Part shown: positions 24,101-42,100 of the stretch, in pieces
Position numbering within the stretch: the first letter of the stretch is position 1
How the letters are laid out: every line of letters starts with the position of its first letter
Source: Mytilus edulis
Lineage: Eukaryota
DNA length: 64,000 bases
Reading direction: 5' to 3'
Assembly: GCF_963676685.1 (NCBI RefSeq)
Contig: NC_092351.1
Span: 64,170,001-64,234,000 of the forward strand
Made by a program: the position numbers

Positions 24101-27100
24101 TTTTCTTTAATTTTCTCCTTTAATTGTATTTCTATCTTCACTATCTCTTCTTTGTATTTCTGTAATAGAATAATATAAAAGTTAACAGATAAAAAACAAG
24201 AACAAAACATTTGTATCATCTGATAATATCATCCACAGGTAGAACAATAAGCTACTGCTCACTTATGGTACCCTAATTTTATTTTTCAGGAAACAGGGTT
24301 TGGAGAGAGGCAAATTATACCAAAGGGATATTCAAACTCATAAACACGGAATCTGCCCATGGGACACAGATGATGCTCCTACTTGCCTACAACGTTATAA
24401 ATGAATATAACTGAAGAACTGTTGAAGTAACACTTCCCAAATTTGTACTTGATCAGAGTTTTGTAGTAATAAGCATTGTTTATTCATTTCATAGCTTGGT
24501 AACAGAAATGAAAAATTCAGCATTCAGGGTATTAAAGATGGACAAGAGTAACATTTATTGCTGGCTATGCTACGTCTGGGGCATAAAAACCCAGACCTAT
24601 CGTTTTTCATACTGATCATCAATTGGACTTCAATATTAGAAGTTGAGATAATTTGCAGATAAAAGGTAAACATCCTGTTCTAGATAAAAGAAGAACTTTG
24701 ATTTTTTCAAATACATGTAATTTGTTTATACATATCATATATTTAGAGACATAAATAATCTGATCTAACTAAATATTAATAGGATTTAACCTTTCCAGTA
24801 TTATAAGTATTCAATACAGGGGCTAAAATAATTGGTCTAAAACATAAATGATCAATTGATTACAATAGAAGTGGTGTTGTAGAAATTAACATTCTACTGA
24901 AAATATACTTCAACAAGCCAGGACTGTCATTAACTGTATTATTTACTAAAAGAGTCTTTAAACATTTTTGAATATGTCTATATCAGGAGCTATTTGCATG
25001 GCACAAGAGAGTACTGTGTGTGGAATTTGTGAAGAATCTTCAATACTGAAATGGATATGTATTGAATGTGATTTATATTTATGCCAGGACTGTTATGTAA
25101 AGTTTCATTCAAAAAGCAAAACACTGGTACACCATCTTGTAATGGACATAAAAGAATATGGGACTGAACAAACGCTGGACAAAATTCTCAAAGTAAAACT
25201 TAAGGAAATTAATTGTGATGGATCCGAACACTGTGACCAGAAATGCAGTATATTTTGCTCAGATTGCGATAAACCAATCTGCTTCAGTTGTGTAATATGT
25301 CACAAATACCATGACCTACACAAGCTAAGTGAAATTTTCGAGCAAAAAATGACCAAGCTAAAAGACTTGAGAGTAAAAAGTGAGCAGAATATTTCTGTAG
25401 GTGAGCATGAAGAGCAGGAACTGCAAGTTATGCTTTCCAAAGGAAGTAAACAATTTGATGACACAAAGACAGAAATTTTGCACAATCAAAAAATATATAC
25501 GGATCTTATACAAAAACATTTTGACAATCTTTTAAAAGATGCGGAAAATCAATGGAATTTAACAAGAGAGACTATCAATAGAGAACTAGAACTTATCCAA
25601 AGAAATATTCAACAAATGGAAGCGCAAAAGAAAAAAATAGACCAGATTTTTAACCCCCAAAAAATCTCAGAAATTCTCACATCAAATCATTCAAATATCT
25701 CTCAAATTTTACCATCAAAAAGTGTTTACCAAATGTCATTGCAACAGGCCAAGTTTATACATGGTTTTCTATCAAAAGACAGCTGTGATAGGTGTTATTA
25801 CTTGAATGGACGCCTCTACAAAGGTCCTCATTACAAAATGATTGGATCTTATTCAACAAAAATGAGAAATCTTTCTAAAATAATTCACTTACAAAATAGT
25901 TCTTGCATCATTGCAAATTATAATGAGGAATTATTACAAAAAGTTAAATTTGACAGTAATGAAATCAAGGTTGAAAATGAGATAAAGACAAAAGTGTTTG
26001 ATCTAGCCATGATACCTGATGGCAGACTTCTTCTTTCTAAAGAAACCTCAGATTTAGAACTCATAAATATAGATGGGGGTAAAGAATTGTTTCACTCTTT
26101 TTCTCCTTTCTTGACATTTGGTGTGTGCGTTCATAAAGAGGATTTATTTGTTGGAGTTGCAAAATCTTTACAGAAATCAGTGTATCAGGATGGTAGAATA
26201 GTTCTATTGGATATGAAGGGACAAGTTAAATGCACATTTGGTAAAGAACATAAATCTGGAGAACCACTCTTTATCTGTCCAACAAGAATAGCAGCTAATT
26301 CTGAAATTATATGTGTAATTAATACCTTAAAGAGAAATAAAGACAATCATATGCTTCAGGGTGGTAGGATAGTTGGATTAAATCATAAGGGGGAGGAAAA
26401 GTGGTCATATTCTGATAAATCAGGAGCTGTAACGGGACGGTTTTATCCACAAGATATAACATTTACCTCAGCAGGTCTTATTCTTGCATGTGATTATTTG
26501 GACAATTCAATACATGCAATAAATAAAGATGGGGATGTTACTGGGTGGATTGACGTACAAGATATTGGTTTTCCAATGTTTCCTGCATCTCTGGATGTTG
26601 ATGATCAAGGGATATTATGGGTTGGGTGTGGAATAAGAGGATCCAATGAAGAAGTGAAGACTCATAAAATCTACTCATTCAAATTTTCATAGTTTGTTGG
26701 ATACTATTTGCTTTTTAATAATAATAATAAAACTTGACTCAGACTTATTATCTTATTATTGTTTGTGATATGTTTTTACATTTTCAAATCAAATTAAAAG
26801 TTGAGAAAACCAAAATAGACACCTAAACACCACAAAGCAACCTTCAACAATAAACAAGAGTTTACATTGTATGACAGGACCTATTTTTTCTTTGAGGTTA
26901 GACATGTTTGTTGATATAGTCATCAGAGACAAACACATGTAATACAAAAACAAAATAATCAAAAAAATTTCTAAAACAAGATTTTAAGCTTTGGCATACA
27001 ATTATGCAGGACTAAGGCATACTTAGTTTAATCTTATCAACATCTCTTATTAAATGATATTATCAGTTACATAGTGTGCTAGTGACCTAATACGGTATAT

Positions 27101-39100: not shown

Positions 39101-42100
39101 GCCCCTCTACTATGAAGCTTAGGCATAAAAAATGAGATAAGGGGTAAACATCATCGAGACATTAATCCAACAATGCAAACAAAACCTTAACAACTAGTGT
39201 ACTCATCAATATACAGGTTTTAGTCTGATTTACATATGTAATACTGTGGATTCATTTATTTTCGTGGGTACCAATTTTCGTGGTTTGAGGAAAATTTACA
39301 TATTCGTGGATATTTAATTTCGTGGTTTTGGCAAAGTCTACACTCATTCCTTTAGAAAATTTGTCATTCATTGAACATTTGAATTCGTGGTTCTCTTGTA
39401 CCAACGAAATCCACGAAAATTGGTATCCAACGAATATTAATGAATCCACAGTATCAAGGAAATCCATGAAACTAACTATCAGGTTGTCTGCATATTGATA
39501 TTGTTAAATATCAGCTGTGAGTCACAAAAATGAAACTTTTTGTCCAATAAGCTCAGTGAAAGAGTTAATAAATGCATTATATTGTGTTCAACAGCTGGTA
39601 TTTTACAACATAAATTTATATGAATAAAATCTGATAACCTTTTTGTGGGATTGTATTTGTGAATTTTGCATGTGTTTTTCTTTGTTTCCCCAACCAAATT
39701 GGAAGATGACTTGATTTTCTTTGTTTCACCACAAAACCAGAAGATGACTTGATAAGTTTAGATCAAACTTAACAACATTTGATCATTCATTATGATAATT
39801 GTGATATGTCCAAAGTTATTTAAACAAGGTTAGTGTATTTGACATCACAAAGCTATGATATGCAAATTAATGAAGAGCTGAGCAGAGTGATATAGACAGT
39901 GGAAACATCAATACATGTAATAGAATATGTTGGGGCAATATGTGTCACAAATCATAAAATTCTGCAACATGGAATATTTTATGCTTGAAAGTGTAAAACA
40001 ACCTGTAAAATTCATAAGTTGCCCACAGCTAAAACAAGACTTGGATAAATCATAAAGTGACTAAGAACGATATATAACCAACAGTCATGACATTTTACAA
40101 CAGGGACAAAAACATGAAGATGATGTAGCTAAAGGCAACAAAACATATAAAGTTTCTGACTTTGGAAAGGCACTACAATTTGGGACAAAGGTTTTGCTTT
40201 TGACAATATTTGTCCATCTTCTTAAATCATTGGCCTAAACATGAAACAGGGTTAGGATTTTCATTTAAGGGGCAAAACTCCTATAAGGTGTTTTTAAGAT
40301 AAGTGCTAAACTGTCAATATGTGCCAGCCCACATCATGGGCCTGTAATGCAGCAATAGTCATTTATTGTTGAAATTCATTCTTGGTTTTGTTTGTTGTTT
40401 TGTACATAAATCAGGATATTGGCTGATTTGAATATTCTTACATTGTGTATATATGAAAGACTTGATATATTTTAATTATGCAGAGACTCAACTAAGTGTA
40501 AGCAGGTTAATTTAATTGTAGGGAATTATGACAAATGTAAATACCTGTTCCATCACTTTAAGTTTCTCTCTGACTTCATGTTCAGTGATAGTTTTAACAT
40601 TGGCTGATGAGATGGCCACAATTCTTTCTCTTTCTTTTACTTTTTCTTCTCTTTCGTGTATCTTCTTGTTTTCCATCTTTACACAGAATATTAAATATAA
40701 TTGATTTGTGATCAGAAAATATCTAATACCAAATTAAATTATCATAAACAACTTTAAATTAATAGTTTACTGGACTTTACAAAATGTCTTTTTTCCTGAT
40801 TTCCAGTGATGACAAAAGATGTGTGGCTTATATTCAAACACAGGTTATACATGGCTGATTACAGTAGTAAAATTGAGAATGGAAATGGAGAATGTGTCAA
40901 AGAGACAACAACCCCACCATAGAACAGACAACAGCAGAAGGTCACCAACAGGTCTTCAATGCAGCTAGAAAATCCTGCACCTGGAGATATCCTTCAGCTG
41001 TCCCCTGAACAAATATATATACTAGTTCAGTGATAATGAACGTCATACTAAACTTCAAATTGTACACAAGAATTGTACAGTAGTGCCCACATAAACACTA
41101 TTTAAACCATAACATATTTTGCGTCTGTACTATCAGAGTTCCTGAACTATCATTTGTTGTATTTGTTTGTTGCTTTTTGGTGGAATCAGGCATTTTTTGA
41201 CTGTTTGGTCTTTTTATGGTCCTATATTTCATGTTATTTCTTTTCTTTTTCTTTCATGTTTATATATATTTCTATCTATGTTGAAGTTTTTTTCAGATAT
41301 TCCTGAGTTATTTCCCTTTGAAAGTAACATGTGCAATATAATGATAACAATCACTTTTGCAATAATCTACTTTAAATGTAATAGCTGCATTTGAATTTCT
41401 GAAGATAAATTAACATACTATATATGCAATTTGCAATTAATTGAATGCTGGTGAATCTGAAATGAGATTGTATAGGATTAATTTTGATTCAAAAGACCCG
41501 AAATCACCCTTTTTCACAGTGAATACCTCAGCATGAGGCAAATGTGATATTTGACAATAGTTGTATGTGTGTAAAGCAGGTTCAGATAAATAAGTGAATA
41601 TCCATAGATTTGATACTACCTTTAACTTATCACTGATAACTTGTAGTTCTTTATATATATCTTTGATGTTTTCTTCTTTCGATTTATTGAACTCATCTAC
41701 AAAAAAATACAATATAATTTAAATTAACACTGACATCTTTACTTTAATTACAACAAAGCTTTATTCTTTATGGAGAATAACATACTGGTGGCAGGAGTCA
41801 AGAATCACTATCCTTAAGTAGATAATTATATAATATATCAAGCTTTAAGGCACCTGTACTTTGGATGGGCACAGTAACAAGTAAGTTTTCAAACGTTCCA
41901 CTTTTTAATTTCCAACAGGTGAATGACAAAATTTCTGCTCAGTGTTGAAGACCTCACTTTGACTTTGAGATTAAAAACAGCAGAACAGTGATGTTTCTTT
42001 GCTTTTGTGTGTTTGTTTTTGCTGTGCATTTACTGATTTTGTTTTATGGATGGACACCCCATGTTCTTTCTTTTCTATTAGCAAAATGAAAAAAAAGGAA

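What the first reader, a model, noticed from the sequence alone, without database searches (positions are those of the whole stretch)
24160..40544. Array of three intact antisense RING-less TRIM-like genes nested in one intron of CCDC138
Seen: CCDC138 intron 5 is 16.4 kb while its other introns are 0.7-2.2 kb. It holds three open, co-oriented single-coding-exon genes (24974, 30971, 36149) on the opposite strand. All have B-box1, B-box2, coiled coil and propeller but no RING, and they are strongly diverged from each other. Known: TRIM/B-box families are expanded in bivalves and often linked to immunity. Inference: this intron acts as a birth-and-death nursery for a diversifying sensor family. 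Lacking a RING, the proteins would act as adaptors or decoys, or hetero-oligomerise with RING-bearing TRIMs. Two further copies (one intact, one dead) lie just past the host 3' end.
Basis: partly seen in the sequence, partly recalled or inferred. Interest (0 to 1): 0.75.

Follow-up and report, generated by a model that had tools for sequence, protein, structure and literature searches.

The report
RING-less TRIM-NHL genes nested in intron
Three intact, old and diverged mussel genes of the Brat-like (RING-less) TRIM-NHL type lie antisense inside one swollen intron of the CCDC138 gene; the arrangement is real but is an ordinary example of two known things, nested gene clusters and the large molluscan B-box/NHL family.

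Summary
The window is Mytilus edulis-complex DNA, not human, with no N. CCDC138 lies on the minus strand. Its exon 5 (40682-40545) and exon 6 (24159-24040) are consecutive in mussel and oyster CCDC138 proteins, so 24160-40544 is one 16.4-kb intron; the others are 0.6-1.8 kb. It holds three plus-strand ORFs of 572, 572 and 592 codons (33-46% identical). Each has B-box1, B-box2, a ~105-residue helix and an NHL six-bladed propeller, and no RING.

RING-lessness is a family trait (0 of 54 relatives), as in Drosophila Brat, so it does not point to a decoy role. The copies are old (dS 0.7 to saturated) and under average purifying selection (dN/dS 0.28-0.39). Two have intact orthologues in named Mytilus species.

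A fourth intact copy (873-2957) is a ~5-kb segmental duplicate of copy 3 that carried a relic of host exon 5 (4962-5099). This shows the nesting is old and not a misassembly. A fifth copy (10447-8755, minus strand) is dead.

"Birth-and-death" is mildly supported. "Rapidly diversifying immune sensor" is untested.

Verdict: a new member of known kinds, of modest interest.

The parts
24160..40544 (-). Intron 5 of CCDC138 (16,385 bp), which holds the three nested genes
   Evidence: Donor GT lies at 40544-40543 and acceptor AG at 24161-24160. Residues of mussel P0012 and oyster P0015 run on without a gap across the two flanking exons.
24974..26692 (+). Nested gene c1: 572-aa RING-less TRIM-NHL-like protein (P0001), the most diverged copy. 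A second Met at codon 9 aligns with the starts of the paralogues.
   Evidence: ORF. Pfam B-box hits fall just under the cut-offs. AF2 mean pLDDT is 85.6. Foldseek gives TRIM2 NHL with TMt 0.73-0.74.
30971..32689 (+). Nested gene c2: 572 aa (P0002)
   Evidence: ORF. Pfam zf-B_box at 2.1e-9. It is 98% identical to the M. edulis model P0009 and 81% to the M. californianus RefSeq 'TRIM75-like' P0008.
36149..37927 (+). Nested gene c3: 592 aa (P0003)
   Evidence: ORF. Pfam zf-B_box at 3.4e-14. AF2 mean pLDDT is 85.0. Foldseek gives Brat NHL with TMt 0.74-0.76. The M. edulis model P0005 matches its first 474 aa with one mismatch.
40545..40682 (-). CCDC138 exon 5
   Evidence: tblastn of P0012 aa 112-159; sequence read.
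24040..24159 (-). CCDC138 exon 6, followed by a GC-type donor
   Evidence: tblastn. Pfam CCDC138_cc positions 1-23. The sequence reads GAT|gcaagt. P0012 reads KKD|FETL and exon 7 starts TTTGAA.
14459..46205 (-). Coding span of the host gene CCDC138: 14 coding exons by tblastn. The boundaries are approximate, apart from those read directly.
873..2957 (+). Copy c4: an intact 694-aa paralogue outside the host, with an in-frame 93-bp x 3.7 repeat at 1842-2188
   Evidence: It is 60% identical to c3 and 78% to M. coruscus P0006.
480..5220 (+). Segmental duplicate of window 35609-40803, that is c3 with its flanks and host exon 5
   Evidence: Collinear blastn blocks; alignment.
4962..5099 (-). Relic copy of CCDC138 exon 5 inside the duplicate, 134/138 identical to the real exon
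8755..10447 (-). Dead paralogue with an in-frame stop block and three frameshifts
   Evidence: Five ORF pieces in shifting frames. tblastn hits in three frames. Residual B-box hit.

Best explanation
This is an old tandem array of three independently transcribed, single-coding-exon genes of the RING-less ('incomplete', Brat-like) TRIM-NHL type. It lies antisense in intron 5 of the mussel CCDC138 gene.

Likely history:
1. One B-box1/B-box2/coiled-coil/NHL gene came to lie in a roughly 1-kb intron.
2. Tandem duplication in steps of 5-6 kb swelled the intron to 16.4 kb.
3. Later, a ~5-kb piece holding the c3 ancestor plus host exon 5 was copied to about 9 kb beyond the host's stop codon. That gave c4.
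4. A further copy decayed.

The intact copies are kept by purifying selection.

Likely mode of action (inferred from the family, not shown here): the long helix forms the antiparallel TRIM-type dimer, and the B-boxes mediate higher-order assembly. The NHL propeller binds a ligand, either RNA as in Brat, LIN-41 and Mei-P26, or a protein. No E3 ligase activity of their own is expected, because the whole subfamily lacks a RING. The host simply splices the array out.
For: Shown:
- ORFs, and their length against chance.
- Host identity and exon continuity.
- Domain content: Pfam B-boxes. A family profile hits the TRIM28 RBCC at 4.9e-24, aligning from chain residue 93. It hits the TRIM3, Thin, TRIM2, TRIM71 and Brat NHL domains at 1e-23 to 3e-17.
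- AF2 models of c3 and c1: pLDDT 85.0 and 85.6, a helix at 119-224 and 118-225, and an all-beta C-terminus.
- Best structural matches are NHL propellers, with TMt 0.73-0.76.
- No RING: no C3HC4-like pattern in any open frame of the window, and 0 of 54 aligned relatives with a RING family (54 zf-B_box, 52 B-box1-type, 23 NHL).
- Among the 150 best of 827 relatives, B-box1 sits at the very N-terminus. The largest offsets are 17, 18 and 38 residues, apart from the chimeric model P0007.
- The M. californianus RefSeq model of the c2 orthologue starts at the same Met.
- Age and constraint: aa identities of 33-60%; NG86 dN/dS of 0.28-0.39 with dS 0.70-2.28; intact orthologues.
- One subfamily: c1-c4, their orthologues, P0010 and P0011 form a 10-row clade (SH-aLRT 91) inside a 99* clade of 11 rows.
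- Nesting predates the c3/c4 split: the c4 duplicon carries a copy of host exon 5 plus 121 bp of intron 4. c4 has its own orthologue in M. coruscus.

Inferred: dimerisation, ligand binding by the propeller, independent transcription, and the order of events.
Against: - There are no expression data, so transcription of any copy is unproven.
- Pairwise whole-domain dN/dS cannot exclude positive selection at a few propeller sites. The coiled coil runs at 0.34-0.68.
- Gene content does differ between assemblies. M. galloprovincialis P0010 and M. edulis P0007 lie on contigs that also carry CCDC138, and together with the unnamed P0011 they have no orthologue in the window. This favours more turnover than 'stable array' suggests.
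- The M. edulis database model of c3 (P0005) stops at residue 474 of 592. This could be an annotation artefact or a real difference between individuals.
- The net charge of the C-terminal domains is neutral to acidic in c1, c3 and c4 (pI 6.8, 6.0, 4.9) and basic only in c2 (8.8). That gives no support to RNA binding, though it is a very crude measure.
- The tree used the quick method, and the 10-row clade is not starred.
Confidence: 0.75

Rival explanations
1. One reading: the intron is a fast birth-and-death nursery for a diversifying immune sensor family. The RING-less products act as decoys or adaptors, or hetero-oligomerise with RING-bearing TRIMs.
For: - A pseudogene and an exported copy.
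- Subfamily members in other assemblies that have no orthologue here: P0010, P0007 and P0011.
- A large, mostly molluscan family.
- Related molluscan clusters that do carry a RING exist, so partners are conceivable (ranks 26 and 29).
Against: - dN/dS is 0.28-0.39, and the propeller is among the more constrained parts at 0.22-0.37.
- The copies are old, with saturated dS, and have intact orthologues.
- RING-lessness is ancestral to the family and has a working precedent in Brat (PMC4015489, passage).
- No call bears on immunity. The two mussel presence-absence papers do not mention TRIM or B-box in their main text. Their supplements are closed and could hold gene lists.
Confidence: 0.15
2. The genes are complete TRIMs whose RING lies on an unseen upstream exon.
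For: The ORFs begin only 4-21 codons after an in-frame stop, so an upstream exon cannot be excluded from the frames alone.
Against: - No RING-like cysteine/histidine pattern occurs in any open frame of the 64-kb window.
- 0 of 54 relatives carry a RING family.
- Relatives start at B-box1.
- The M. californianus RefSeq model starts at the same Met.
- One gap remains: a RING split over two exons would escape the pattern scan.
Confidence: 0.04
3. The large intron is an assembly artefact: a TRIM-like cluster wrongly joined into CCDC138, or collapsed or duplicated haplotigs.
For: Mussel genomes are highly heterozygous, with many hemizygous regions (PMC7653742, abstract and passages). A 100%-identical 312-bp tandem repeat at the host's 3' end shows that the local assembly may not be perfect.
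Against: - The c4 duplicon preserves a copy of host exon 5 joined to a c3-like gene. It is older than the c4 / M. coruscus P0006 split. This is independent evidence that a c3-like gene lay next to exon 5.
- Two other assemblies place a subfamily member and CCDC138 on one contig: M. galloprovincialis, 75,449 bp; M. edulis, 99,289 bp.
- There is no N in the window.
Confidence: 0.03
4. The ORFs are untranscribed relics that happen to remain open.
For: No expression evidence is available.
Against: - Frames of 572-592 codons against at most 162 in shuffles.
- dN/dS is well below 1.
- All zinc ligands are kept.
- A truly dead copy nearby shows what decay looks like in this DNA.
Confidence: 0.03

Closest known systems
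Drosophila Brain tumor (Brat), an 'incomplete' TRIM-NHL protein
   Same: It has the same domain order of B-box1, B-box2, coiled coil and NHL propeller, with no RING (PMC4015489, passage). The Brat NHL domain is the best or a top structural match, with TMt 0.74-0.76 for c3 and 0.68 for c1. The profile also hits it, at about 3e-17.
   Different: Sequence identity in the propeller is only about 14-15%. Brat is a single conserved developmental gene, not a member of a tandem family. RNA binding was not tested here. These proteins are much shorter (572-592 aa) than I recall Brat to be; that comparison comes from memory, not from a call.
Class VII TRIM-NHL E3 ligases (TRIM2, TRIM3, TRIM71/LIN-41, Thin, Mei-P26)
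   Same: B-box, coiled coil and NHL propeller. Profile E-values are 1e-23 to 1e-17. TMt is 0.70-0.75.
   Different: Those proteins carry a RING, and from recall TRIM2, TRIM3 and TRIM71 also carry a filamin repeat. No RING or filamin family was found in any of the 54 relatives.
Molluscan B-box/NHL expansions already in databases ('tripartite motif-containing protein 2-like', 'TRIM75-like', 'B box-type domain-containing protein')
   Same: c2 and c3 are already represented by M. edulis protein models, and c2 and c4 by orthologues in M. californianus and M. coruscus. The nearest Atlas clusters are mostly molluscan, with zf-B_box plus NHL and no RING listed.
   Different: The nested position in CCDC138, and the export of a copy together with a host exon, are not mentioned in anything I could search. 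This is a weak negative: few relevant papers were retrieved and supplements are closed.
TipE/Teh gene cluster nested in the last intron of CG18675 in insects
   Same: It is a cluster of paralogous genes held in one intron of an unrelated, conserved single-copy host. Escape from nesting occurred in some lineages (PMC3240667, abstract and section 6 read).
   Different: The gene family and phylum differ. The TipE cluster overlaps the host's terminal exon. Here the escape is a duplicate that took a host exon with it, while the nested originals stayed.

Membership tests
TRIM / RBCC (complete tripartite motif) | N-terminal RING finger | tested here: not met
   No RING family in c1-c4 or in any of 54 relatives. 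No C3HC4-like pattern in any open frame of the window.
TRIM / RBCC (complete tripartite motif) | One or two B-boxes followed by a coiled coil, in that order | tested here: met
   Pfam ANCHR-like_BBOX plus zf-B_box. Eight plus eight zinc ligands are conserved. The models show a single long helix at 119-224 and 118-225. The profile aligns with the TRIM28 B-box/coiled-coil region at 4.9e-24.
TRIM-NHL, RING-less 'incomplete' form (Brat-like) | C-terminal six-bladed NHL propeller | tested here: met
   The profile hits the TRIM3, TRIM2, TRIM71, Thin and Brat NHL domains. Foldseek TMt is 0.73-0.76 for c3 and c1. The Pfam NHL repeat is found in 23 of 54 relatives but only weakly in c1 (E 0.13) and not in c2-c4. 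c2 was not modelled.
TRIM-NHL, RING-less 'incomplete' form (Brat-like) | RNA binding by the top face of the NHL domain | not testable with these tools
   Only a crude charge count was possible: pI of 4.9-8.8 for the C-terminal domains, which is uninformative.
Nested (intronic) gene | The whole gene lies inside one intron of a host whose flanking exons are consecutive in the mRNA | tested here: met
   Exon 5 and exon 6 residues are contiguous in mussel and oyster CCDC138 proteins. Splice sites were read directly. The joined CDS was not built. The continuity rests on orthologue protein models, not on RNA reads from this animal.
Nested (intronic) gene | Both host and nested genes are transcribed | not testable with these tools
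   No RNA data are on hand.
CCDC138 (host) | CCDC138_cc and CCDC138_C domains | tested here: met
   Six exon-bearing ORFs hit the two families above their cut-offs. Identity to M. galloprovincialis CCDC138 is 88-100% per exon outside the alignment overhangs.
Birth-and-death multigene family | Tandem paralogues plus pseudogenes plus gain and loss between genomes | tested here: inconclusive
   Tandem paralogues and one pseudogene are present. Members without an orthologue in the window exist elsewhere, but their positions could not be seen.
Diversifying (positively selected) receptor family | dN/dS above 1 in the ligand-binding domain | tested here: not met
   The C-terminal domain gives 0.22-0.37 in all six pairs. 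Site-level tests were not possible with four sequences and saturated dS.

The most novel reading that the evidence does not exclude
The CCDC138 intron array may be structurally polymorphic. Different mussel haplotypes would then carry different, long-diverged sets of these TRIM-NHL paralogues, as in the presence-absence regions described for mussels.

The lead is a second M. edulis contig that holds CCDC138 together with a c2-like/c3-like pair only 61-63% identical to the window's copies. M. galloprovincialis also has a member that is absent here.

In addition, the exported copy still exchanges sequence with the host. A ~510-bp tract around the exon-5 relic is 90-97% identical to the real exon region, while the rest of the duplicon is 68-74% identical. 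A dead exon copy outside the gene could therefore be feeding variants into a working host exon by gene conversion.
Probability: 0.2. Interest if true: 0.55.

Novelty: new member of a known kind. Interest (0 to 1): 0.3.

Why it matters
This is a clean, datable example of how a lineage-expanded gene family grows inside an intron of an unrelated conserved gene, and how it then leaves. The host-exon relic beside copy 4 works as a molecular fossil: it proves the nested state is old, and it offers a marker for tracing the event across Mytilus species.

For annotation, it shows three things:
- These ~570-aa RING-less B-box/NHL genes are complete, not truncated TRIMs.
- Existing M. edulis models of them are shortened or chimeric (P0005, P0009, P0007).
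- The name 'TRIM75-like' is misleading, because their kin are the NHL-type TRIMs and Brat.

It opens no long-standing question. Nested clusters and the molluscan B-box/NHL expansion are both known.

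Tried and rejected
- The bacterial-type promoter and terminator scan of the intron is irrelevant for an animal genome and is not above shuffles: 81 against 87.2 +/- 9.6, and 7 against 6.9 +/- 3.3.
- Rfam at gathering thresholds over the whole window gave 0 matches, so no known RNA gene shares the intron.
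- The search for homologous proteins with the 54-row alignment returned the same 7 proteins as the single query. It gave no taxon names for the distant relatives.
The species of P0011, P0014, P0021, P0023 and the distant relatives remain unknown. Whether the 622,580-bp M. edulis contig carries CCDC138 also stayed unchecked.
- YN00 dN/dS gave values for all four regions of the c3-c4 pair and for the B-box region of c1-c3. It failed (nan) in the other 19 of 24 comparisons, so NG86 is reported.
- The isoelectric points of the propellers are uninformative about RNA binding.
- Literature searches for a description of this family or of the nesting in bivalves retrieved nothing on point.
- In the two mussel presence-absence papers, 'trim' matched only 'trimmed'. 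Supplements are closed and may list such genes.
- LINE-mediated 3' transduction as the route of the c3-to-c4 copy was considered, because a degraded reverse-transcriptase fragment abuts the breakpoint. It was left open: no matching element lies at the source and no poly(A) trace was looked for.
- Complex prediction was not used, because no claim of binding is made beyond family inference.
- The joined CCDC138 coding sequence was never assembled or searched.
Intron 5 in other individuals or species was therefore not examined.

Full report
**What the window is.** The window has no N and about 31% G+C. It is mussel DNA, not human. Its ORF at 36149-37927 matches a Mytilus edulis database protein (P0005) with one mismatch over 474 residues. 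The ORF at 30971-32689 is 98% identical to another M. edulis protein on the same 622,580-bp contig (P0009).

**The observation.** Only three ATG-to-stop ORFs of 200 aa or more lie in 22000-64000. All are on the plus strand: 24974-26692 (c1, 572 aa), 30971-32689 (c2, 572 aa) and 36149-37927 (c3, 592 aa). In 100 shuffles of the window the longest open frame averaged 120 codons and never exceeded 162. A 572-codon open frame has a chance probability of about 6e-21.

**The host.**
- Ten minus-strand ORF pieces were scanned singly against Pfam. Two hit CCDC138_cc (23983-24228 at model positions 1-23; 22385-22525 at positions 23-52).
- Four hit CCDC138_C (17730-18044, 16369-16578, 15275-15499, 14462-14665). 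Four hit nothing above a cut-off.
- A search with the single piece 15275-15499 returned named CCDC138 proteins of M. galloprovincialis, M. edulis, Ostrea, Mizuhopecten, Pinctada and a hemichordate.
- Local tblastn of the M. galloprovincialis RefSeq protein (P0012, 578 aa) gave thirteen hit blocks from 44979 down to 14462. Residues 112-159 map to 40682-40539 and residues 154-197 to 24171-24040, so nothing is missing between exon 5 and exon 6. The oyster protein behaves the same way.
- The first eight residues map to 46205-46183.

By this map the other introns are about 0.6-1.8 kb. Intron 5 is 16,385 bp, roughly half of the 31.7-kb coding span. The continuity rests on orthologue protein models, not on RNA from this animal.

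**What the nested genes encode.**
- Pfam finds a B-box1-type finger (ANCHR-like_BBOX) and zf-B_box in all three genes and in a fourth ORF at 837-2957. In c1 both hits fall just under the curated cut-offs.
- All sixteen zinc ligands are conserved in alignments of 54 and 55 family members. This includes c1, which heads the second alignment.
- A profile of the 54-row alignment hits the TRIM28 B-box/coiled-coil region at 4.9e-24, aligning from chain residue 93. It also hits the NHL domains of TRIM3, Thin, TRIM2, TRIM71 and Brat at 1e-23 to 3e-17.
- AlphaFold2 models of c3 and c1 (mean pLDDT 85.0 and 85.6) show two small fingers, one helix of about 105 residues and an all-beta C-terminal domain.
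- Foldseek against the PDB puts NHL propellers on top: Brat at TMt 0.74-0.76 and TRIM2 at 0.73-0.75 for c3, and TRIM2/TRIM3 at 0.73-0.74 for c1.
- c2 was not modelled. It aligns with c3 over its full length.

**No RING.**
- No C3HC4-like pattern, strict or loose, occurs in any open frame of the 64-kb window on either strand. A RING split across two exons would escape this scan.
- None of the 54 aligned relatives carries any RING family. 54 have zf-B_box, 52 have the B-box1 type and 23 have NHL.
- In the exhaustive search there were 827 representatives at E<=1e-3, 187 at <=1e-10 and 37 at <=1e-30. The full-length relatives are 540-590 aa and start aligning within their first ~33 residues. The exceptions are one chimeric model and one 353-aa protein with a 38-residue offset.
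- The M. californianus RefSeq model of the c2 orthologue starts at the same Met.
- The nearest Atlas clusters are mostly molluscan B-box+NHL sets with no RING listed. RING-bearing molluscan NHL clusters appear further down the list.

RING-lessness is therefore the family's normal state. It is also the architecture of Drosophila Brat, which Loedige et al. call an 'incomplete' TRIM lacking the RING and whose NHL domain binds RNA (PMC4015489, passage read).

**Age and selection.**
- Amino-acid identities are 33-36% for c1 against the others, 46% for c2-c3 and 60% for c3-c4.
- Nei-Gojobori dN/dS over six pairs is 0.28-0.39 overall. By region it is 0.19-0.35 in the B-boxes, 0.34-0.68 in the coiled coil and 0.22-0.37 in the C-terminal domain.
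- dS is 0.70 for c3-c4 and 1.29-2.28, effectively saturated, for the other five pairs. No nucleotide similarity survives outside the coding regions of c1, c2 and c3.
- c2 has an 81% orthologue in M. californianus, c4 a 78% orthologue in M. coruscus, and c1 an 87% relative of unknown species.
- In a quick maximum-likelihood tree of 35 rows, c1-c4, their orthologues, M. galloprovincialis P0010 and the unnamed P0011 form one clade of 10 (SH-aLRT 91). It sits inside a starred clade of 11. This is consistent with a single local origin.

These results describe an old, constrained cluster. They do not show diversifying selection, although site-level selection cannot be excluded.

**The copies outside the host.**
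- The ORF at 873-2957 (c4, 694 aa from its Met) is intact. It carries an in-frame 93-bp repeat, 3.7 units long.
- Self-comparison shows that 480-5220 is collinear with 35609-40803. This is a ~5-kb duplicate comprising c3 with about 0.5 kb upstream and 2.9 kb downstream. It runs through host exon 5 and 121 bp of intron 4 and ends at a sharp breakpoint.
- The relic of exon 5 lies at 5099-4962 and is 134/138 identical to the real exon. The intron-4 part is 114/121 identical, and the first ~260 columns of intron 5 are 226/252 identical. Further on, identity falls to 72% and 68%, like the 72-74% of the coding regions.
- So an old duplicon contains a younger, conversion-like tract of about 510 bp. 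Because only the host can be the source of exon 5, c4 derives from the nested array. The nesting is then older than the split between c4 and its M. coruscus orthologue, and a misassembly is very unlikely.
- The breakpoint abuts degraded reverse-transcriptase ORFs.
- The dead copy is on the minus strand (10447-8755). It has one in-frame stop block and three frameshifts and a residual B-box hit.

**What favours some turnover.**
- M. galloprovincialis P0010 lies on the same 75,449-bp contig as a CCDC138 fragment and has no orthologue in the window.
- M. edulis P0007 lies on the same 99,289-bp contig as CCDC138 model P0016. It is a chimeric model of a c2-like C-terminal part (60.6% identical to c2) followed by a c3-like N-terminal part (63.2% identical to c3).

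Whether these lie outside the window's span or on alternative haplotypes could not be resolved.

**How it most likely works.**
- Shown: the gene structures, the domains, the nesting, the duplication history and the average constraint.
- Inferred from the family: each gene is its own antisense transcription unit and is spliced out of the host pre-mRNA. The products dimerise through the long helix, and the propeller binds RNA or protein. They have no ligase activity of their own.
- No call bears on an immune role.

**Comparison and novelty.**
- Clusters of paralogues nested in one intron, with later escape, are documented for the insect TipE/Teh genes in CG18675 (PMC3240667, abstract and section 6 read).
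- Intronic genes are about 6% of D. melanogaster genes (PMC3786989, search listing only).
- The proteins themselves are already in databases.
- New here are the specific host, the intron swelling and the host-exon relic that dates the nesting. My searches found no description of this, but they retrieved little and supplements are closed.

I rate it a new member of known kinds, with interest 0.3.

Noticed in passing
window 4702-5220 vs 40293-40803: A tract of about 510 bp around the relic of CCDC138 exon 5 is 90-97% identical to the real exon region. The rest of the same duplicon is only 68-74% identical. This looks like gene conversion between the host exon and its dead copy.
   Followed up: partly
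window 5174-7241, minus strand: Degraded non-LTR reverse-transcriptase ORFs (RVT_1 hits at 6034-6345 and 6559-6960) sit directly against the breakpoint of the c3/c4 duplicon at about 5220. A retroelement-mediated copy mechanism is possible but was not tested.
   Followed up: partly
window 24034-24039, minus strand: CCDC138 intron 6 starts with a GC donor (GAT|gcaagt). Protein continuity (KKD|FETL) leaves no GT alternative.
   Followed up: yes
window 13870-14492: A 312-bp unit is repeated 2.0 times at 100% identity. It covers the last ~30 nt of the CCDC138 coding sequence, the stop codon and the start of the 3' flank. It is either a very recent duplication or an assembly artefact.
   Followed up: no
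window 1842-2188: Copy c4 holds an in-frame tandem repeat of 93 bp x 3.7 (an acidic 31-aa unit). It is inserted early in the C-terminal domain, just after the conserved ...F-x-K-S-E-I-K segment. The M. coruscus orthologue has fewer units.
   Followed up: partly
M. edulis proteins P0007 and P0016 (one 99,289-bp contig); M. galloprovincialis P0010 and P0013 (one 75,449-bp contig): Other assemblies link CCDC138 with subfamily members that have no orthologue in the window. P0007 fuses parts of two neighbouring paralogues. P0013 fuses a CCP1-like N-terminus to the CCDC138 C-terminus. These are chimeric annotations and may reflect haplotype differences.
   Followed up: partly
window 54428-55191: A 161-bp satellite of 4.8 units lies upstream of the host gene. 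Several short dispersed repeats are shared between introns and flanks, for example 12152-12478 with 44528-44853 and 27734-27988 with 55466-55703.
   Followed up: no
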